Below are positions 20,719-28,028 of a DNA stretch of 64,000 bases, in pieces. Position numbers and translations under genes: made by a program. Location of the stretch: NCBI GenBank assembly GCA_036521875.1, contig DATDGX010000147.1:190-64189 (forward strand). The letters are read 5' to 3'. Source of the stretch: Candidatus Binataceae bacterium (GTDB lineage: Bacteria > Desulfobacterota > Binatia > Binatales > Binataceae). Below the pieces are notes generated by a model. The model made no database searches. It saw nothing but the letters and a program-made list of their open reading frames with translations, and was not told the origin of the DNA. The number at the start of each line of letters is the position of its first letter. The first letter of the stretch is position 1.

Positions 20719-22188
20719 CTACTTGACCTGGGCGTCGAACACGGCGGTGTCGATTTTGCCGGCGCGCTTGAACTGCAGGAAAATCCGGTAGAGTCCCGGC
20801 TGCGGAAAGCCATAGGGCATCGAGATCTCCGGCGACACGCTCGCCGGCGCGCCGGGCGGATTCGTTTCCGACGACATATTCATTTCCGCCATCGGCGCCG
20901 CGGCTGATGCGCTGTTATCGGCGCTCGCCATCATCAGCGCCGCCATCGGCACCGAACCCGACGGATGGATATGCGCGAACACGCTGCGGTCGCTGCGGAT
21001 TATTTCCGCATGCGCCGCCATCCCCATGTACGGCTCGAGATCGGTCGCCGGTCTGCCGTTCTGATCCTGGACCATGAAGCGCAGAATCATCGGCGTATTG
21101 GCTTGAAGCGGCGCCGCATCGCGAGCCCATCGCACGCGAGTCCCGTCCGCCAGCACCTGCGAGGCGCCGGTTGCCTCGCCGACCGGCTTTGCCGATCCTT
21201 CCGAGTCGTCTCCGCTGAGCGGCGCTCCGGAAATTTGCGGCAAGTCGATGCTGCCGACCAGCGTCCACGGAAAGCCCGACTTGTCGACGACATCAGCGAA
21301 GACGTCGTAATGCCCGGGTTCGAGCGACGGCAGATTGGTGGCGAACGCGCCGCCCTTGCCGGTCTCATCCGGATGCAGATGCAATAGGCGGTCGAGTGCG
21401 GGCGTCCGCACCAGGAAGAGATGCATCAGGTGACCGTGATCGGGGACCAGTTGATCCATCACCTTGTACTCGAGCCACGCTTTGTCCGACGGGGAGGGGC
21501 GGAGCGTGAGATGATTTGCGCCCTCAAGTGAGAGGGAGAGCCGGGGCGGTCTGAAGAGCATCGTGGTCGCGAGGTAGTCGCGCGCGTCGGCGTCCCACCA
21601 CGCGAAGCCAAGGTAGAACAGCGCCGCGACCAGCACCGTCATGACCGCCATCGCCCGCCGGCCGCTCCGCCGCGATTGCGGCGTCGCGAGCGCTCCAGGA
21701 GCCAGGCCCGCGTCGCGCGCCGCCGCGCCCACGATCGCGATCGCGCCGAGTCCCAGGCCGATGGCGAGCACCAGCAGGATGGCGCCGAGCCATCGCGGCA
21801 TCGGTAGCATCCGGCGCGCGACGCTCGGCACCGGCACCGACATATCGGCGCTGCCGCGCGTTCCGCGCACCTTGATCAGCACCCGCAGCGAACCATATTC
21901 CATCAGCCACAGCGACGCGGTGAAGAAATTTGGGTCGGTCTTCGAGCGCGTCGCGAGATCGGGAACCGGAGCGTACTTCGATCCGGGACCGGTGAGCCGC
22001 GCGACCGCGGTGCTGATCTCGCGCGCGTCGTCGGAGCTGGCGCGAATCTCGATATCGGCAACGCCCGGAATCACCTGCGGCACTCGCACGGTCACGAACA
22101 GGTGGTACGGACCCGCATCGCCTTCATAGAAAACGTCGGGACTGCCGACGTGCGCAGAGGCGGGGCTCGCGAGAAAGAACCTGACCAT
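20719..22188 (-). CDS. Secreted, membrane-anchored protein with YcnI/DUF1775-like N-terminal domain and C-terminal domain carrying two HxHP motifs (putative copper-binding)
   Basis: Predicted signal cleavage ASA|HV gives a mature N-terminal His (HVGSPDVFYEGDAGPYHLFVTVRVP, compare YcnI HVSVKP...Y..KVP). Two TM helices follow, then a domain with GHLMHLFLV...LHLHP and AHAEII...AHIHPSG. Start uncertain (M at 22188 or an upstream non-ATG codon); the track ORF extends to 22371 and would overlap the upstream gene by 95 nt. Confidence 0.4.
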   Translation of the reverse strand: MVRFFLASPASAHVGSPDVFYEGDAGPYHLFVTVRVPQVIPGVADIEIRASSDDAREISTAVARLTGPGSKYAPVPDLATRSKTDPNFFTASLWLMEYGSLRVLIKVRGTRGSADMSVPVPSVARRMLPMPRWLGAILLVLAIGLGLGAIAIVGAAARDAGLAPGALATPQSRRSGRRAMAVMTVLVAALFYLGFAWWDADARDYLATTMLFRPPRLSLSLEGANHLTLRPSPSDKAWLEYKVMDQLVPDHGHLMHLFLVRTPALDRLLHLHPDETGKGGAFATNLPSLEPGHYDVFADVVDKSGFPWTLVGSIDLPQISGAPLSGDDSEGSAKPVGEATGASQVLADGTRVRWARDAAPLQANTPMILRFMVQDQNGRPATDLEPYMGMAAHAEIIRSDRSVFAHIHPSGSVPMAALMMASADNSASAAAPMAEMNMSSETNPPGAPASVSPEISMPYGFPQPGLYRIFLQFKRAGKIDTAVFDAQVK

Positions 22189-22276
22189 CGCGACCGCGGC
22201 CAGCGTGAGCACAACGGCGGATCGCGCGGAAATGTTTTTCGGAATCGACGGAATAGACGACACGCGAAGCTTTCGT

Positions 22277-23482
22277 CTAGCGCTGAACCTTACGCATCCA
22301 GTGTCCCAGCCCCATTCCGATCGTGCAGAAAATGATCGACGCGAGCACTGCCAGCGCCATCCCCTCGACAAATGCGGCGTGAGTCTTGGCGGGGTCGGCG
22401 AACCGGTAAGGATTGTAGAGCAGGTTCGCCGGGTCGTTGTACGAGAAGTACATCGTTCCGAAAACCCAGTTGCGTGATGCGGGCGAGATCAGAAAATCGG
22501 CGAACGGCCATTGCACCGCGAACAGCGCGGCGACGAAGACGCATCCCGCGAGCAGCGCGGATTTAATGCCGCCCCAGCGCTCGCCCATCTTGACCCTCAG
22601 CAGATCGAGCACGAACGCGGGCACGATTATCAGCACCGGAAACCACAGCGGAACCATGTGCGTGATGTGCTGGTAGACGGGCCCGAGTTTCGGCTGCGCC
22701 GGGAACAACGGGAAGATCCAGAGCGCGGCCAAAAACGCCGCAGTGTAAATTGCCGCCATCGTGGTCGCGGGCCATCGAGAGGTGGAGACGCAGGAGACCG
22801 CGATCAGCACGAGCGGAAAACCCTCCGCGACCGATCGGTAGAACATCGGGTTGTGCATGAATTCCATCGGCGTCGATTCGAGGTTGAACAACGCCGCCTG
22901 CACGATCTCGATCGCGCCGACGTAGAGCAGCATCCGATCGAGTTTCGCGCGGCGCGCTCCGGTGGCGCGATTCACCTGCGCGCAGACCAGCAGCAGCGCG
23001 CCGAGACTGATCATTCCGATCCCTGCCGATAGCATCGAATGCGGCAGGCTCACGATCTTGACATCGAGTCCGTAGGCGCTGTGCCACCAGTTGTCGAAGG
23101 GCGCGGAGGTGAGCATCGCGATTCCGCCCCACGCCGCGAGGAAGCATCCCAGCGGCCCGCGAAATCCCCAAATCGAAACCGAAGTTTCCCTGGACTCAGC
23201 CGAGGAACCAAACGTGCTTGTCAAAATCATGTATCCACTCGCGACTCCGGCGAGCACGCCGCCCAGATAAATCGCCATGTGCGCGGGAGTCCAGAACGAG
23301 TCGCGGCCGATCGAGATGTGCCACGAGATATCCCAGTAGCCGCCGAAGGCGGAAGAGGTCACCGCCGCGGCCAGGCACCATACGTACCATGGGATGGCGG
23401 CAGCGCGGGTGGCCTCGATTGCGCGGCCGGCGACGCGCGGCCGACGCTCGAGCGTGGCAGCCTGCAGGACTGCGTTCCCCAT
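22277..23482 (-). CDS. Polytopic integral membrane protein of unknown function (at least 10 TM; possible CopD/CtaG-like)
   Basis: 401 aa, almost entirely hydrophobic helices, W/H-rich segment GYWDISWHISIGRDSFWTPAHMAIYLGG. Second gene of a three-gene minus-strand operon. Confidence 0.5.
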   Translation of the reverse strand: MGNAVLQAATLERRPRVAGRAIEATRAAAIPWYVWCLAAAVTSSAFGGYWDISWHISIGRDSFWTPAHMAIYLGGVLAGVASGYMILTSTFGSSAESRETSVSIWGFRGPLGCFLAAWGGIAMLTSAPFDNWWHSAYGLDVKIVSLPHSMLSAGIGMISLGALLLVCAQVNRATGARRAKLDRMLLYVGAIEIVQAALFNLESTPMEFMHNPMFYRSVAEGFPLVLIAVSCVSTSRWPATTMAAIYTAAFLAALWIFPLFPAQPKLGPVYQHITHMVPLWFPVLIIVPAFVLDLLRVKMGERWGGIKSALLAGCVFVAALFAVQWPFADFLISPASRNWVFGTMYFSYNDPANLLYNPYRFADPAKTHAAFVEGMALAVLASIIFCTIGMGLGHWMRKVQR

Positions 23483-23586
23483 GGTGAAGACTCCTTCGGC
23501 CTTTGCGACTATCCAGTCGTATAGCCTACTGAATAGCTACTCGCGAGTGTACCTCATTTGAAGTGCGGCGCGTATCGAAAGAGTAC

Positions 23587-24015
23587 CTAACTGAGGCGCT
23601 CGTCATGATAGGCAAGATACAGCGCAGTGCCGACCGATCCGGTGAGAGAAATCGCGAGATAGATCAGGATGAAGTTCACCGGCGGCCGCGGTCCGCCATG
23701 CAGGAACCAGAACAGCACCAGGTTCACCGGGACATAAAACGCGTAGACCATCGCGAGCGGCAGCACCCATCGTCGCATCGTCCACAGTCCGTACGCATAC
23801 GTGGCGAGTATCAGTCCGAACAAGGGGCCCAGAATGGCGTTGGCTCCGACGGTTTGCGTCTGGACTCCGAAAATAACCAACCCCTTGGTCGGGTCATGCA
23901 TGTTCTGGAAAAATTTGGTGAAGTCCGAGAGCGCAAGGATGGCAAGCAGCACCGCCATCACCGAAAGAAAAATTCCGCGGTCCGTCGTGGCGTGGCGGTT
24001 CTCTGACGCGTCCAT
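23587..24015 (-). CDS. Small 4-TM membrane protein of unknown function
   Basis: Start at MDASENRH...; four hydrophobic helices. First gene of the 24.0-20.7 kb operon. Confidence 0.4.
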   Translation of the reverse strand: MDASENRHATTDRGIFLSVMAVLLAILALSDFTKFFQNMHDPTKGLVIFGVQTQTVGANAILGPLFGLILATYAYGLWTMRRWVLPLAMVYAFYVPVNLVLFWFLHGGPRPPVNFILIYLAISLTGSVGTALYLAYHDERLS

Positions 24016-24103: not shown

Positions 24104-25315
24104 CTATTTGAAAAGGAGACGGCTGGTGTGGCGGGCGATCATGAGATCCTCGTTGGTGGGAATCACGCGCACGATGCATCGGCTGCCTTGCGAGCTTATC
24201 GTGTCGGCGTGAGCGTCGTTGCGGCGCTGGTCCAGGCGTATCCCCAGATGATCGAGACCGGCTGCGACCGTCCATCGGACCGACGCGGCGCGCTCGCCGA
24301 TTCCACCGGTGAAGACCAGCAGGTCGAGACCGCCGAGTGCCGCGGCGAGTGCGCCGATACTTTTGCGGAGCTGATAACAGAACATCGCGACCGCCTGGCG
24401 CGCGTCGGGATTCGCGTTGCGTAGTTCGAGCAGTTTCTTCATGTCGGAAGTGACGCCGGAAACGCCGAGCAGGCCGGATTCGCGGTTGACGAGCCGATCG
24501 AGGCCCGCCGCGTCGAAACCTCTTTCTTTCATCAGGTACACCGGCACGCCGGGATCGAGGTCGCCGCTCCGGGTGCCCATCATGAAGCCGCCCGCCGGCG
24601 TGAATCCCATCGTGGTGTCGACTGGTCGTCCGTCACGCACCGCGGCCATGCTCGCGCCATTGCCGAGATGCGCGATGATGACGCGCGGCGGTGGGGTCTC
24701 GCGCAGGGCCTGCATGATGTATTCGTAGGAGATTCCATGAAATCCGTAGCGGCGAATGCCGTCATCCCAAAGCGCGCGCGGCAGCGCAAAACGCTGTGCG
24801 AGCTCGGGCATCCTGCGATGGAATGCGGTATCGAAGCACACGGCCTGCGGCAGTCCGGGAAAGTGATCGGACACGTCGTCGATGGCCTGGAGTTCACCGG
24901 GCAGATGCAGCGGTGCAAACGGAATCAACCCGCGGAGCGCGCTCATCAGTTGCGGCGTGACGCGCTCGGGCGCCGCGTGATCGGGTCCGCCGTGGACAAG
25001 CCGATGGCCGGCGGCTCGCGGCGTCGGCAGGTTCAGGCGCGCGGTGGCATCGAGGATCACATGGATCGCGCCGTCCGCCGAAGAAAAGTTGCGGTTTTCC
25101 TCGCAGAGGACGCGCCCGTGCCCATCGCGGATTACGAGGCCGCCGCCATCCATGCCGATGCGATCGGCGGTGCCCGCCGCAATAAGTGTTTCCTTCCCGG
25201 CGCCGATCGAATAGAGCGCGAACTTGCACGAGGAGGAGCCGCTGTTGACGCACAGGATGGCGTTCGAGGTGCGGTTTACTTGCGTGTGACTACCGTCATT
25301 CATGATGAGCGTCAT
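24104..25315 (-). CDS. ackA: Acetate (or propionate) kinase
   Basis: ILCVNSGSSSCKFAL (compare acetate kinase LVLNCGSSSIKY), HLGNGAS, and the C-terminal ATP-binding region. Confidence 0.85.
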   Translation of the reverse strand: MTLIMNDGSHTQVNRTSNAILCVNSGSSSCKFALYSIGAGKETLIAAGTADRIGMDGGGLVIRDGHGRVLCEENRNFSSADGAIHVILDATARLNLPTPRAAGHRLVHGGPDHAAPERVTPQLMSALRGLIPFAPLHLPGELQAIDDVSDHFPGLPQAVCFDTAFHRRMPELAQRFALPRALWDDGIRRYGFHGISYEYIMQALRETPPPRVIIAHLGNGASMAAVRDGRPVDTTMGFTPAGGFMMGTRSGDLDPGVPVYLMKERGFDAAGLDRLVNRESGLLGVSGVTSDMKKLLELRNANPDARQAVAMFCYQLRKSIGALAAALGGLDLLVFTGGIGERAASVRWTVAAGLDHLGIRLDQRRNDAHADTISSQGSRCIVRVIPTNEDLMIARHTSRLLFK

Positions 25316-25459
25316 TCATGATGGGCATTGCGCGAATCGATTCTAGCAGAGCAGATTGAACTAGGTAGACGGATTGGCCTCGCGCGCGCTGTGAGCCATA
25401 GCGACGGCATTTCGATAGACTGATGGAGTTACGATTGGTCCATCAAGGAGCCCAATAAA

Positions 25460-26479
25460 ATGCAAATGGGAATGGTCGGTCTCGGAAGAATGGGCGCGAA
25501 CATGGTGCGGCGTCTGCTGCGCGATGGTCACGAGTGCGTGGTGTTCGACGTCACTCCCGCCGCAGTTGCGGAGCTGGCGAAGGAGAAGGCGGTGGGCGCG
25601 TCGTCGCTCGATGACTTCGCCGCGAAGTTGAAAAAGCCGCGCGTCGCGTGGATGATGGTGCCGGCGGCGGTGGTCGAGCAGACCGTCGCGGACCTGTCGT
25701 CACGATTCGAGCGCGGCGACATCATCGTCGACGGCGGCAACTCGTATTACATCGACGACATCCGCCGAGCCGAGGCGCTCAAGGCCAAGGAGATTCACTA
25801 CGTCGATTCGGGCACCAGCGGGGGAGTGTGGGGACTCGAGCGCGGCTTCTGCCAGATGATCGGCGGCGAGCCGGAAGTAGTGAAGCATCTCGGTCCGATT
25901 TTTGCGACGCTCGCACCGCCGCTTGATTCCGCGCCGCGCACCGCGGGCCGCGAAAAAGTCAAAGGCAGCACCGCGGAGCATGGCTATCTTCATTGCGGCC
26001 CCAACGGCGCCGGCCACTTCGTCAAAATGGTCCACAATGGAATCGAGTACGGGATCATGGCGGCGTACGCGGAAGGGCTGAACATCCTTCGCCACGCCAA
26101 CGTCGGCAAGCAGACCAATGCCGCCGTCGATGCGGAGACTACGCCGCTCAGAAATCCGAAGCTGTACCAGTACGATTTCAACCTGACCGACATCGCCGAG
26201 GTGTGGCGCCGTGGCAGCGTGATCGCGTCGTGGCTGCTCGACCTGACGGCCGACGCGCTGCTCGGCGATCCGGAGCTGAAGAAGTTTGCCGGCCGGGTGT
26301 CGGATTCGGGCGAGGGCCGCTGGACGATCGATGCGGCGATCGACGAGGGTGTGCCAGCGCACGTGCTGACTGCGGCGCTCTACGAGCGGTTCGGATCGCG
26401 CGGCGCCGCCGACTTCGCCGACAAGCTGCTGTCCGCGATGCGCTACGAGTTCGGCGGCCATCTCGAGAAGAAGGCCTGA
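25460..26479 (+). CDS. gnd: 6-phosphogluconate dehydrogenase, decarboxylating (short Gnd-like form)
   Basis: [16 protein letters not shown]ossmann N-terminus; [23 protein letters not shown] 6PGD signature. 339 aa, the short-form length. Confidence 0.85.
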
Positions 26480-26492
26480 GCGGGTTTCGGCG

Positions 26493-28028
26493 ATGTCGAG
26501 TCAAGACACCTTCCAGCCTCCAGCGAACGTGGAGGGAAAGCCTGGCGATCCTTGCGTGTTCGTGGTTTTTGGCGCGACCGGCGACCTGACCAAGCGCCTG
26601 CTGATGCCGTCGCTATACAACCTGCTCGCCGCCAGGCTGATGCCGAAGGAGTTCGCGATCATCGGCGTCAGCAACGCGCAGATGAGCTTCGAGGATTTTC
26701 GCAAACAGCTGGGCAAGGAGATCCAGGAATTCGCAACTACCAAGGTCGACCCCGAGTTGTGGAAGTGGTTCGACCAGCGGATCACTTACATGGAGGGCGA
26801 CTTCAAGGACCCCGCGACCTATCAGAAGCTGAAGACGCAGCTCGCGGCGATCGACAAGCAGCAGGGCACGCCGGGCAACTACCTGTTCTACACCGCGGTG
26901 TCGCCGAGCTTTTTCGGCGAGATCGTAAAGCAGCTAGCCGCCGCCAAGCTCACCGACGAACCTAAAGGCTGCTGGCGGCGCGTGATTATCGAGAAGCCGT
27001 TCGGCCACGATCTCGACTCGGCGCTCGCGCTCAACCGCGAGATCGGCGAGTGCCTGCGCGAGGACCAGACTTTCCGCATCGATCATTACCTGGGCAAGGA
27101 AACCGTTCAGAACATCATGGCGTTCCGTTTCGGCAACGGCATTTTCGAACCGGTATGGGACCGCCGCTATATTAATCACGTTCAGATAACGGTGGCGGAG
27201 ACGGTCGGCGTGGAACATCGCGGCGGCTACTACGAGACTTCGGGTGCGCTCCGCGACATGGTTCCTAATCACATACTGCAGTTGGTGGCACTGACCGCGA
27301 TGGAGCCGCCGATCTCGTTCGACTCCGAGCCGGTGCGCGACGAGAAGACCAAGCTGCTGCGCGCGATTCGTCCGCTCCAACCGGAAGAGGTGCCGTCGTG
27401 GGCGGTGCGCGGACAATACGGGCTGGGCACGATGGGCAAGGAGCAAGTGCCGGGTTACCGGTCCGAGCCGCAGGTCAATCCGCAGTCGCCGGTCGAGACC
27501 TACGTCGCGCTGAAACTTGCGATCGACAACTGGCGATGGGAAGGCGTGCCGTTCTATCTGCGCACCGGGAAGCGGATGGCGAAGCGGGTCACCGAGATCG
27601 CGATCCGGTTCAAGGCGCCGCCATTGCTGCTCTTCCGCCAGACTGCCGTCAAACAAATCGAGCAGAACGAGCTGGTGCTGCATATCCAGCCCGACGAGGG
27701 AATTTCGTTGGGCTTCAGCGCCAAGATACCGGGACCGGTGGTCAAGCTCGAGACTGTCGACATGAATTTCAAGTACGCCGATTATTTCGGCGCCCCACCG
27801 AGCATCGGATACGAGACGCTGCTGCTCGATTGCATGATCGGCGACCCGACGTTGTTCCAGCGCGCGGATACCGTCGACGCGGGATGGCGCGTGGTCGACC
27901 CGATCCTCGATGCGTGGAAGGCTAACCCGCCCAAAGATTTTCCGAACTATCCGGCCGGCTCATGGGGACCGCGCGCCGCCGACGAATTGCTGGAGCGCGA
28001 TCGCCGCAAGTGGCGCGATCTCAGATAA
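26493..28028 (+). CDS. zwf: Glucose-6-phosphate 1-dehydrogenase
   Basis: [21 protein letters not shown] and RIDHYLGKE active-site motif; 511 aa; 14 nt after gnd. Confidence 0.9.

What the first reader, a model, noticed from the sequence alone, without database searches (positions are those of the whole stretch)
20719..24015. Three-gene membrane operon with a YcnI-like N-terminal-His domain and repeated HxHP motifs: candidate copper-handling system
The operon encodes a small 4-TM protein, a 401-aa polytopic protein rich in Trp/His in its first loops, and a protein whose predicted mature N-terminus is a histidine (ASA|HVGSPDVFYEG...YHLFVTVRVP). That resembles the Cu-binding histidine brace of YcnI/DUF1775 proteins, which are normally encoded beside CopC-CopD. 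This third protein then has two TM helices and a C-terminal domain with two copies of a (G/A)H.(M/E).....F.H(L/I)HP motif. No annotated copper ATPase, CopC or regulator is adjacent, so if it is copper-related it is a non-canonical arrangement. The fusion of a YcnI-like domain to a membrane-anchored HxHP domain may be undescribed.
Basis: partly seen in the sequence, partly recalled or inferred. Interest (0 to 1): 0.55.

Follow-up and report, generated by a model that had tools for sequence, protein, structure and literature searches.

The report
Hidden relative of methane/ammonia monooxygenase
Two of the three genes form a conserved, unannotated membrane gene pair whose first protein keeps both copper-binding sites of methane/ammonia monooxygenase subunit C, so it looks like an unrecognised distant branch of that enzyme family.

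Summary
The three minus-strand ORFs and the motifs exist as described, but the unit is two genes, not three.

- **Conserved module.** g2 (401 aa) and g3 (514 aa) are adjacent in 78 of 80 genome loci. These come from Binatia and Acidobacteriota. The pair also occurs in one planctomycete-like contig and one Marinimicrobia contig.
- **g1 is a bystander.** The 4-TM gene is Binatia-specific and sits in unrelated contexts elsewhere.
No DUF1775/YcnI, CopD or CtaG match was found.
- **g2 N-terminus resembles PmoC/AmoC.** The first four helices match by hhalign (E about 1e-5; reversed and shuffled controls P at least 0.05) and by reciprocal HMMER (20-23 bits). D51/H55/D61/H68 align to the CuC ligands. 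D130/H134/H148 align to the CuD ligands.
- **Rest of g2 resembles PmoA/AmoA.** The six best Foldseek matches in the PDB are all PmoA/AmoA.
- **g3 resembles PmoB in layout only.** Like PmoB it has a signal peptide cut before an invariant His, a beta-sandwich and two TM helices. Two duplicated beta-sandwich domains follow, where PmoB has one; each carries an invariant HxHP, and there is a Met-rich loop. It shows no sequence similarity to PmoB.
- **Gene order** mimics pmoC-A-B with C and A fused.

Best reading: a copper-dependent membrane complex distantly related to copper membrane monooxygenases. Substrate and activity are unknown and untested.

The parts
22277..23482 (-). g2: 401-aa polytopic membrane protein. 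It looks like a PmoC-like core fused to a PmoA-like domain.
   Evidence: The ORF has a Shine-Dalgarno site. The AF2 model has pTM 0.85 and 10 TM helices. A homologue sits directly upstream of the g3 homologue in 78 of 80 loci, and also in L084 and L085.
22988..23410 (-). g2 residues 25-165 (TM1-TM4): region homologous to the last four TM helices of PmoC/AmoC.
   Evidence: hhalign against PmoC/AmoC gives Prob 80-84% and E 8e-6 to 1.5e-5. The relaxed alignment spans g2 14-163 against PmoC 86-233. Controls give P at least 0.07. Local HMMER scores 20.4 bits, and 22.5-23.3 bits in the reciprocal direction. Pfam AmoC gives sub-threshold hits in 1 of 47 and 3 of 53 members. tblastn of AmoC against the window hits only this region, E 0.001.
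23279..23332 (-). CuC-like motif D51-ISW-H55-ISIGR-D61-SFWTPA-H68.
   Evidence: It aligns residue for residue to PmoC D127/H131/D137/H144 of chain 7ev9_C, which equal AmoC D136/H140/D146/H153, the CuC ligands. All four residues are invariant in the family.
23039..23095 (-). CuD-like motif D130-NWW-H134-...-D140-...-H148.
   Evidence: It aligns to PmoC N198/H202/H216, which equal AmoC N207/H211/H225, the CuD ligands, with identical x3 and x13 spacing. The residues are invariant in the family.
22280..22975 (-). g2 residues 170-401 (TM5-TM10): PmoA/AmoA-like region.
20719..22263 (-). g3: 514-aa bitopic protein with a PmoB-like layout.
   Evidence: The ORF starts at a GTG 13 nt after the g2 stop. 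The AF2 model shows three beta-sandwich domains and two TM helices. The family has 3233 representatives at 50% identity with E at most 1e-3, and the full-length architecture is kept down to about 33% identity.
22153..22263 (-). g3 signal peptide (residues 1-37), with predicted cleavage at ASA|H.
   Evidence: Across 83 homologues, -1 is A, G or S in 83 of 83, -3 is A in 51 of 83, +1 is His in 83 of 83, and conservation starts at the His.
21814..22152 (-). g3 N-terminal beta-sandwich (residues 38-150), beginning with invariant His38. The fold is CopC/CrdA-like.
21559..21795 (-). g3 TM hairpin (helices 157-184 and 195-235) with a short Arg-rich cytoplasmic loop.
   Evidence: Taken from the AF2 secondary structure and from the sequence.
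21229..21543 (-). g3 domain 2 (residues 241-345), carrying D275-H276-x4-H281...H295-L-H297-P298.
   Evidence: The His residues are invariant or nearly so. The domain is a beta-sandwich in the model.
20722..21216 (-). g3 domain 3 (residues 350-514), carrying Y412-M-G-M415-x2-H418...H431-I-H433-P434. It is a duplicate of domain 2.
   Evidence: These residues are invariant. The D2-D3 comparison by hhalign gives Prob 90%, E 1.3e-6.
20842..20961 (-). Met-rich, low-confidence loop (residues 435-474, 6 Met) directly after HIHP.
   Evidence: pLDDT is below 50 here. Met-rich composition recurs in the homologues.
23587..24015 (-). g1: 142-aa 4-TM protein. It is an adjacent, lineage-specific neighbour and not part of the conserved module.
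   Evidence: It is found next to g2-g3 only in the closest relative, L001. Its family is Binatia-only with 449 hits. Homologues lie beside an AMP-ligase or P450 genes elsewhere.

Best explanation
g2 and g3 probably encode a two-subunit, copper-binding inner-membrane complex that is a very distant relative of the copper membrane monooxygenases (pMMO/AMO).

**g2.**
- Its first four TM helices correspond to the metal-binding four-helix core of subunit C. They carry two Asp/His/His sites at the periplasmic membrane surface, the counterparts of CuC and CuD.
- The following six helices correspond to subunit A, so subunits C and A would be fused in one chain.

**g3.**
- It plays the part of subunit B.
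- After signal-peptide cleavage its first residue is an invariant His. That His could chelate copper through its amine and imidazole, possibly completed by one of the two invariant HxH motifs. N-terminal His plus HxH is the ligand inventory of the CuB site.
- A hairpin of two TM helices anchors it beside g2.
- A Met-rich loop would handle Cu(I).

**Status of each step.**
- Shown: the conserved pairing of the two genes, the PmoC similarity including ligand-for-ligand alignment, the PmoA-like fold ranking, and the domain layout of g3.
- Inferred: copper as the metal, physical assembly of the two proteins, and O2-dependent oxidation of an unknown, probably hydrophobic, substrate at the intramembrane sites.
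For: **Gene pairing**
- g2 and g3 are adjacent, 0-15 nt apart or overlapping in most loci, in 78 of 80 genomes.
- The pair also occurs in a planctomycete-like contig and a Marinimicrobia contig with every motif kept.

**g2 against PmoC/AmoC**
- hhalign gives Prob 80-84% and E 8e-6 to 1.5e-5.
- The reversed control gives P 0.67, and 40 column shuffles give a minimum P of 0.072.
- Single alignments cover PmoC 99-234 against g2 18-156. The reciprocal search scores 22.5-23.3 bits.
- Pfam AmoC hits 1 of 47 and 3 of 53 members, best E 4.5e-4.
- tblastn of AmoC against the whole window hits only g2, E 0.001.

**Ligand alignment**
- D51/H55/D61/H68 align to the CuC ligands and D130/H134/H148 to the CuD ligands.
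- Ligand identities come from PMC12804982 and PMC13058606.

**g2 against PmoA/AmoA**
- The six best Foldseek matches in the PDB are all PmoA/AmoA, prob 0.94-0.99, and the next match has prob at most 0.2.
- A collinear weak hhalign match has P 0.017, below all 40 shuffles.

**g3**
- The layout comes from the model.
- His at +1 is invariant and the His clusters are invariant.
- The N-domain has a CopC/CrdA-like fold.

**Topology.** By the positive-inside rule (inference from sequence), both g2 sites and all g3 domains face the periplasm. The C-terminus of the PmoC-like part and the N-terminus of the PmoA-like part both lie in the cytoplasm, so a C-A fusion is feasible.
Against: - No Pfam or NCBIfam model reaches its curated threshold for either protein.
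- g3 shows no detectable sequence similarity to PmoB (P at least 0.05).
- The HxH motifs of g3 lie in the C-terminal domains, not in the N-domain as in PmoB.
- The Foldseek E-values (0.16-0.44) are not significant on their own.
- The PmoA sequence signal is weak.
- The PmoC/AmoC and PmoA/AmoA profiles used for the comparisons were built from only three sequences each.
- CuD has Asn where g2 has Asp.
- No conserved neighbour suggests a substrate, an electron donor or a downstream pathway.
- The host lineages are not known methane or ammonia oxidisers (established knowledge, not tested here).
- The metal identity, the complex and any activity are all untested.
Confidence: 0.5

Rival explanations
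1. The pair is a copper acquisition or delivery system, functionally like CopC-CopD or YcnI-YcnJ. On this reading g3 captures periplasmic Cu through its N-terminal His, His clusters and Met-rich loop. It then hands the metal to g2, whose Asp/His/His sites act as transport or relay sites towards the cytoplasm or towards membrane cuproenzymes. The PmoC-like bundle would be a reused metal-binding module, not a catalytic one.
For: - The N-domain fold matches CrdA, CopC and the YcnJ CopC domain, and the profile hits CrdA.
- A Met-rich loop and several His sites are typical of trafficking proteins (general knowledge).
- Weak YtkA and CopC Pfam hits occur in some members.
- No dedicated partner enzyme or electron-donor gene is conserved nearby.
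Against: - g2 has no CopD, Ftr1 or other transporter HMM match.
- Most of g2's invariant residues cluster at the periplasmic membrane surface (with the topology inferred here). Invariant residues also lie deeper in later helices (P288, D293), and no systematic search for a translocation path was made.
- Retention of both PmoC sites, including the second-shell R60/D61 and T65/P66, together with a PmoA-like domain is more than a simple relay would need.
- No copper regulator, ATPase or cuproenzyme is linked to the pair in any of the loci examined.
Confidence: 0.25
2. The complex binds another metal (Zn, Fe, Mn or Ni), or it is a non-catalytic sensor or structural membrane complex. The resemblance to CuMMO would then be limited to a shared ancient helical metal-binding hairpin.
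For: - The CuC site of pMMO crystals has been found occupied by Zn (PMC12804982), so Asp/His/His sites are not copper-specific.
- No experiment bears on the metal.
Against: - An N-terminal His brace together with a Met-rich loop is characteristic of copper proteins (general knowledge; CopC/CrdA literature).
- The match to PmoC extends over four helices, not one hairpin.
Confidence: 0.15
3. One reading: a three-gene operon in which g3 carries a YcnI/DUF1775 domain and g2 is a CopD- or CtaG-type protein.
For: - The N-terminal motif AHVxxP...G...VxVP resembles the start of YcnI-type proteins (recalled from memory, not tested).
- The N-terminal His is invariant.
Against: - DUF1775 and CopD are not among the families listed at E up to 1-10 for the window proteins or for 83 + 100 homologues (two of the three family lists show only the top 25). 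CtaG was checked only for the window proteins.
- g1 is not conserved with the pair.
Confidence: 0.05

Closest known systems
Copper membrane monooxygenases (pMMO/AMO; PmoC/AmoC PF04896, PmoA/AmoA PF02461, PmoB/AmoB PF04744; e.g. PDB 7S4H, 9CL6, 9LEG)
   Same: - g2 residues 25-165 align to the last four TM helices of PmoC/AmoC.
- The CuC ligands (Asp, His, Asp, His) and the CuD His pair are conserved at identical spacing.
- The rest of g2 ranks PmoA/AmoA first by Foldseek.
- The gene order is C-A-B.
- The partner protein has the PmoB layout: signal peptide, N-terminal His, beta-sandwich, two TM helices, then beta-sandwich.
   Different: - C and A are fused in one 401-aa chain, and the N-terminal roughly 100 residues of PmoC are missing.
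- CuD has Asp in place of Asn.
- g3 has no sequence similarity to PmoB. It has two C-terminal domains instead of one, and its HxH motifs lie outside the N-domain.
- No Pfam model reaches threshold.
- The hosts are Binatia, Acidobacteriota, a planctomycete-like genome and Marinimicrobia, with no linked C1 or nitrogen-oxidation genes.
CopC family, including H. pylori CrdA (PDB 9LL2) and the CopC-like domain of YcnJ
   Same: - There is a marginal profile hit to CrdA (E 0.005).
- The mature N-terminal His matches that of Cu(II)-binding CopCs.
- A Met-rich segment is present.
   Different: - No second conserved His or Asp ligand lies inside the N-domain.
- The domain is fused to two TM helices and two further His-rich domains.
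- The partner is not CopD.
- The CopC Pfam model is hit only weakly, by 4 of 83 members.
YcnI / DUF1775 (PF07987)
   Same: - The N-terminal His follows directly after the signal peptide.
- The protein is membrane-anchored and periplasmic or extracytoplasmic.
   Different: - DUF1775 is not among the families listed for the window protein or for the 83 homologues.
- No copC/copD-type neighbour is present.
- The downstream architecture differs.
ECF transporter S-components (YkoE, RibU, FolT, BioY, CbiM)
   Different: - No sequence or HMM similarity was found.
- No EcfT/EcfA genes lie nearby.
- S-components do not appear among the top 50 Foldseek matches.
- g2 has 10 TM helices and periplasm-facing metal motifs.

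Membership tests
YcnI / DUF1775 (PF07987) | Match to the DUF1775 profile. | tested here: not met
   DUF1775 is not among the families listed at E up to 1 for g3, nor among the 25 most frequently matched families for 83 diverse homologues.
YcnI / DUF1775 (PF07987) | Mature N-terminal His directly after signal-peptide cleavage. | tested here: met
   His is at +1 in 83 of 83 homologues, with A, G or S at -1. No formal signal-peptide predictor was available.
YcnI / DUF1775 (PF07987) | Genomic linkage to copC/copD (ycnJ)-type genes. | tested here: not met
   The neighbours are metabolic genes. No such gene recurs in the 80 loci.
CopD (PF05425) / Caa3_CtaG (PF09678) | Profile match of the polytopic protein. 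| tested here: not met
   Neither appears among the matches of the window g2 at E up to 1. CopD is also absent from the families listed for 100 homologues at E up to 10 (one list shows only the top 25).
CopC (PF04234) | CopC beta-sandwich fold and profile match. | tested here: inconclusive
   [not shown]
CopC (PF04234) | Cu(II) site made of the N-terminal His plus a second His and an Asp or Glu inside the same domain. | tested here: not met
   H38 is the only invariant His of the N-domain, and no acidic residue there is invariant or nearly so. H54 and E47 are conserved only within Binatia.
CuMMO subunit C (PmoC/AmoC, PF04896) | Profile match above the Pfam gathering score. | tested here: not met
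   Only sub-threshold hits were found, in 1 of 47 and 3 of 53 members, best E 4.5e-4. The window protein itself has none.
CuMMO subunit C (PmoC/AmoC, PF04896) | Remote homology by profile-profile comparison and reciprocal HMM search. | tested here: met
   hhalign gives E 8e-6 to 1.5e-5 and Prob 80-84%, with controls at P at least 0.07. HMMER scores 20-23 bits in both directions. The PmoC/AmoC profile was built from three sequences only.
CuMMO subunit C (PmoC/AmoC, PF04896) | CuC ligands: Asp, His and His, plus a second Asp in AMO. | tested here: met
   D51/H55/D61/H68 are invariant and align to AmoC D136/H140/D146/H153.
CuMMO subunit C (PmoC/AmoC, PF04896) | CuD ligands: Asn, His and His. | tested here: inconclusive
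   H134 and H148 align to the two His residues at the same spacing. The first ligand is Asp130 instead of Asn.
CuMMO subunit A (PmoA/AmoA, PF02461) | PmoA fold and sequence similarity. | tested here: inconclusive
   [not shown]
CuMMO subunit B (PmoB/AmoB, PF04744) | Sequence homology to PmoB. | tested here: not met
   hhalign P is at least 0.05 for the whole protein and for each domain. HMMER finds nothing.
CuMMO subunit B (PmoB/AmoB, PF04744) | Architecture: cleaved signal peptide, N-terminal His, periplasmic beta-sandwich, two TM helices, C-terminal beta-sandwich. | tested here: met
   The model and the alignments show this layout. g3 has one extra C-terminal domain.
CuMMO subunit B (PmoB/AmoB, PF04744) | CuB site: the N-terminal His plus an HxH in the same N-terminal domain. 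| tested here: not met
   The N-terminal His and two invariant HxH motifs exist, but the HxH motifs lie in domains 2 and 3. Their proximity to His38 could not be tested because the N-terminus has pLDDT below 50.
CuMMO holoenzyme | xmoCAB operon order. | tested here: met
   The order is [C-like + A-like fused]-[B-like], conserved in 78 of 80 loci and in two further contigs.
CuMMO holoenzyme | (alpha-beta-gamma)3 assembly, copper content and O2-dependent substrate hydroxylation. | not testable with these tools
   This needs multimer modelling or cryo-EM, metal analysis and activity assays.

The most novel reading that the evidence does not exclude
g2-g3 defines a deep, previously unrecognised branch of the copper membrane monooxygenase superfamily. 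Its C and A subunits are fused and its B-type subunit has diverged beyond sequence recognition. It occurs in Acidobacteriota, Binatia, Marinimicrobia and a planctomycete-like genome, and it oxidises an as yet unknown substrate. As an outgroup to all known CuMMOs it would show which metal sites are ancestral: both subunit-C sites and the N-terminal His are invariant here.
Probability: 0.4. Interest if true: 0.9.

Novelty: new variant of a known kind. Interest (0 to 1): 0.75.

Why it matters
- **Scope of the enzyme family.** Copper membrane monooxygenases carry out the first step of aerobic methane and ammonia oxidation. They are known from a limited set of lineages, always as three separate subunits.
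- **Abundance.** A distant fused relative in abundant soil and ocean heterotrophs would widen that family a great deal. The g3 family alone has at least 3233 representatives at 50% identity and hits in at least 575 species genomes.
- **The active-site debate.** Which copper site of pMMO/AMO is catalytic (CuB, CuC or CuD) is still argued (PMC13058606, PMC12804982). This family keeps the CuC and CuD ligands and an N-terminal His invariant across several phyla. It therefore offers an independent comparative and experimental handle, possibly in hosts easier to work with.
- **If it is only a copper-trafficking system.** It would still be an undescribed and widespread architecture.

Tried and rejected
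- **Standard annotation.** Pfam and NCBIfam scans of the three proteins found nothing significant and no DUF1775, CopD or CtaG.
- **PDB profile search with the g2 family.** Only chance hits to a photosynthetic cytochrome subunit appeared. PmoC was not listed, which I attribute to HMMER's speed filters; that explanation was not tested.
- **g3 against PmoB.** There was no signal for the whole protein or for any single domain.
- **Conserved neighbours.** ORF clustering over 80 loci found none beyond g2-g3. The SDR and FtsX-like clusters that recur are common families at varying positions.
- **g1 as a third subunit.** Rejected.
- **Promoter and terminator scan.** Counts were at or only modestly above the shuffle expectation (promoters 1 found vs mean 1.0; terminators 5 vs 2.6, sd 1.7), so the scan was uninformative.
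- **Locating the AmoC-hitting members.** Two extra scans of 20 g2 homologues did not find which members gave the Pfam AmoC hits. The question was settled with local HMMER instead.
- **Literature.** Three full-text searches for remote, fused or '-like' CuMMO homologues found no description of this family. The library holds open-access papers only.
- **Other copies.** The window holds no second copy of the pair and no canonical pmoCAB.

Full report
**1. What is in the sequence**

Three ORFs lie on the minus strand.
- g1 is 24015..23587: 142 aa, ATG preceded by GGGAGG, about four hydrophobic helices.
- g2 is 23482..22277: 401 aa, ATG preceded by GAAGGAG.
- g3 is 22263..20719: 514 aa from a GTG 13 nt after the g2 stop. 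The ORF that extends to the TTG at 22371 overlaps g2 and is unlikely.

An acetate kinase gene lies upstream on the same strand. The other neighbours are a 6-phosphogluconate-dehydrogenase-like gene, glucose-6-phosphate dehydrogenase, an alpha/beta hydrolase, a Gfo/Idh/MocA oxidoreductase and a DUF4440 protein. No copper gene is nearby. The window has about 62% G+C. The named homologues come from Candidatus Binatus and Binataceae.

**2.

The leader ...FFLASPASA|HVGSPDVFYEG is real. In an alignment of 83 homologues sharing 31-66% identity:
- the residue after the leader is His in 83 of 83;
- position -1 is Ala (75), Gly (7) or Ser (1);
- position -3 is mostly Ala;
- leaders have a median length of 22 aa and a hydrophobic core;
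- conservation starts exactly at the His.

I had no signal-peptide predictor, so the cleavage site rests on this pattern.

The AF2 model of g3 (mean pLDDT 75) shows this order of elements:
- a beta-sandwich (residues 44-145);
- two TM helices (157-184 and 195-235);
- two further beta-sandwiches (241-345 and 350-513);
- a disordered Met-rich loop (435-474).

The two H...HxHP motifs are invariant across the family. The two domains that carry them are duplicates (hhalign Prob 90%, E 1.3e-6).

**3. The unit is two genes, not three**

A genome scan returned at least 575 confirmed relatives of g3, and the best 80 loci were kept.
- A g2 homologue lies directly upstream of the g3 homologue in 78 of those 80. 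In most loci the gap is 0-15 nt or the genes overlap.
- g1 is present only in the closest relative, L001.
- The g1 family is Binatia-specific with 449 hits. Elsewhere its members sit beside an AMP-dependent ligase or P450 genes.
- Nothing else recurs around the pair.

The pair also occurs in two more distant records, with every motif intact:
- a 10.5-Mb contig with planctomycete-type neighbours (PSCyt1, PSD1, DUF1501);
- a Marinimicrobia contig.

The g3 family has 3233 representatives at 50% identity with E at most 1e-3. The full-length architecture holds down to about 33% identity.

**4.

- Pfam and NCBIfam give no significant hit for any of the three proteins.
- Scanning 83 g3 homologues one by one gives only weak E-set hits: YtkA in 10 members (best E 4.6e-4) and CopC in 4 (best E 0.06). 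DUF1775 is not among the listed families.
- CopD is not listed for the 100 g2 homologues, and CtaG is absent for the window protein.
- A family profile hits CrdA in the PDB at E 0.005, within the N-domain.

The N-domain is therefore CopC/CrdA-like in fold and starts with His. It lacks a second conserved ligand of its own.

**5. What g2 is**

The g2 family is large: 7994 of 8000 scored candidates were significant. The AF2 model (pTM 0.85) has ten TM helices.

Its invariant residues cluster in two similar hairpins:
- G-x-x-W-D51-I-S-W-H55-x-S-I-G-R60-D61-x-F-W-T65-P-A-H68, at the TM1/TM2 turn;
- S-A-P-F-D130-N-W-W-H134-x-A-Y-G-L-D140-V-...-P-H148, at the TM3/TM4 turn.

The spacings D-x3-H-x12-H and D-x3-H-x13-H recalled the two copper sites of subunit C of particulate methane monooxygenase. 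I wrote the M. capsulatus PmoC, PmoA and PmoB sequences from memory. They matched PDB chains 7ev9_C, 1yew_B and 3rgb_A exactly. I took further AmoC, AmoA and PmoB sequences from printed PDB alignments.

*Sequence evidence for PmoC/AmoC*
- hhalign of the g2 family against PmoC/AmoC gives Prob 80-84% and E 8e-6 to 1.5e-5.
- With relaxed settings the alignment spans g2 14-163 against PmoC 86-233. It places both triads on the CuC and CuD ligands.
- Controls: the reversed profile gives P 0.67. Forty column shuffles give a minimum P of 0.072.
  - 79 of 94 g2 proteins have E below 1e-3.
  - Single alignments cover PmoC 99-234 against g2 18-156.
  - The reciprocal search scores 22.5-23.3 bits on AmoC.
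- The Pfam AmoC model gives sub-threshold hits in 1 of 47 and 3 of 53 members, best E 4.5e-4.
- Plain tblastn of AmoC against the whole 64-kb window hits only g2, at 23347-23237, E 0.001.

*Ligand correspondence*
- In the 2.36 A AMO structure, CuC is bound by D136, H140, D146 and H153 of AmoC. CuD is bound by N207, H211, E218 and H225 (PMC12804982).
- g2 D51, H55, D61 and H68 match all four CuC ligands.
- g2 D130, H134 and H148 match N207, H211 and H225. The invariant D140 lies one residue from the E218 position.
- A 2026 review notes that the CuC loop is well conserved among CuMMOs and the CuD loop poorly so (PMC13058606). The g2-PmoC comparison shows the same pattern.

*Fold evidence for PmoA/AmoA*
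- Foldseek of the g2 model against 350,542 PDB chains puts six PmoA/AmoA chains on top: 7s4h_B, 9cl6_B, 6cxh_B, 9pxf_D, 9leg_A and 9cl2_Ca. Their probabilities are 0.94-0.99 and their E-values 0.16-0.44. The next match has probability at most 0.2.
- At sequence level the best hhalign alignment pairs g2 177-336 with PmoA 17-172, and 164-400 with 4-242 when relaxed. Its P of 0.017 is below all 40 shuffles, whose minimum was 0.051.
- HMMER repeatedly maps PmoA 115-173 onto g2 265-341 in different members.

I read g2 as a PmoC-like four-helix core followed by a PmoA-like domain. The first half of that statement is well supported. The second is supported at fold level only. The tools do not report which part of g2 they aligned.

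**6. Topology and layout (inference from sequence)**

- The positive-inside rule puts the g2 N-terminus, the 171-181 loop and the C-terminus in the cytoplasm.
- Both Asp/His/His sites, H210, H275 and the long conserved loops then lie on the periplasmic side, as in pMMO/AMO.
- The end of the PmoC-like part and the start of the PmoA-like part are both cytoplasmic, so a C-A fusion is topologically simple.
- In AMO, AmoC TM3-6 and AmoA TM1 together form the channel that holds CuC and CuD. In g2 these would be the contiguous helices TM1-TM5.
- The gene order [C-A fused]-[B-like] mirrors xmoCAB.

g3 shares with PmoB/AmoB:
- a cleaved leader;
- an N-terminal His (AmoB H38 plus H142 and H144 form CuB);
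- a periplasmic beta-sandwich, a two-helix hairpin and C-terminal beta-sandwich material.

g3 differs from PmoB/AmoB:
- it shows no sequence similarity to PmoB;
- it has one extra domain;
- it carries its HxH motifs in domains 2 and 3.

Whether His38 meets an HxH could not be tested. The N-terminus has low confidence in the model, and coordinates are not exposed by the tools.

**7. Most likely mechanism and its rivals**

*Best reading (confidence about 0.5).* This is a copper-dependent membrane complex distantly related to CuMMOs.
- g3 would capture and hold copper through the His brace, the His clusters and the Met-rich loop.
- g2 would bind one or two coppers at intramembrane Asp/His/His sites that face a hydrophobic pocket.
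- O2-dependent oxidation of an unknown substrate would take place there.

My sub-estimates are:

| Sub-claim | Estimate |
|---|---|
| PmoC homology | about 0.85 |
| PmoA-like domain | about 0.6 |
| Copper as the metal | about 0.75 |
| Monooxygenase activity | about 0.35 |

*Main rival (0.25).* A CopCD/YcnIJ-like copper uptake or delivery system that reuses a PmoC-like metal module.

*Minor rival (0.15).* Another metal, or a non-catalytic role.

*Points against the favoured reading*
- All curated models are sub-threshold.
- PmoC is absent from the fold-search lists.
- There is no PmoB homology.
- There are no linked pathway genes.
- The host lineages are not known to oxidise methane or ammonia.

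**8. Novelty**

Every named homologue is 'hypothetical protein'. No Pfam or NCBIfam family covers either protein. Three full-text searches found no description of a fused or remote CuMMO relative of this kind. The paper library is open-access only, so an existing description cannot be excluded.

I rate the finding a new variant of a known kind: the CuMMO superfamily with a fused, highly divergent architecture. Interest is 0.75. If confirmed, it widens a biogeochemically central enzyme family and gives an outgroup for the unresolved question of which copper site is essential.

Noticed in passing
window 23587-24015 (-); L081-L083: g1 belongs to a Binatia-restricted family of about 140-aa 4-TM proteins with 449 hits. 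JGI labels a few members DUF2068, but Pfam gives no significant hit here. It occurs in varied contexts (after an alpha/beta hydrolase and before an AMP-ligase; after P450 genes). Its function is unknown.
   Followed up: partly
P0249 / P0167 (same Binataceae MAG, locus tags ACLQDV_25180 and ACLQDV_21720): At least one Binataceae genome carries a second, divergent g3 paralogue (42% identity to the window protein) apart from its main pair. Some genomes may therefore hold more than one copy of the system. L003 and L004 are also two loci from a single MAG.
   Followed up: no
PmoA residues 46-65 vs PmoC residues 127-144 vs g2 residues 47-68: PmoA/AmoA has a TM1-TM2 turn, G-D-W-D-F-W-x-D-W-K-D-R-x-x-W-...-T-P. 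It loosely resembles the PmoC CuC hairpin and the g2 motif (WDxxW...RD..W.TP). This hints that subunits A and C may be ancient paralogues. hhalign of PmoC against PmoA was not significant (P 0.2).
   Followed up: partly
L084 7648-8916 (+): In the planctomycete-like contig, a 422-aa gene with no Pfam hit directly follows the g3 homologue on the same strand, and an acyl-ACP thioesterase-like gene comes next. I did not check whether this is a lineage-specific third component.
   Followed up: no
window 22001-24000: The AT skew is markedly positive (+0.18) over g1-g2, compared with at most about 0.11 in the other 2-kb bins (0.08 or less within 14 kb on either side). Minus-strand genes for membrane proteins rich in T-containing codons could explain this; that explanation was not tested.
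   Followed up: no
window 24104-28028: Acetate kinase is divergently arranged with a 6-phosphogluconate-dehydrogenase-like gene and glucose-6-phosphate dehydrogenase. The acetate kinase and the esterase flank the pair in the closest relative L001 as well, but in no other locus.
   Followed up: partly
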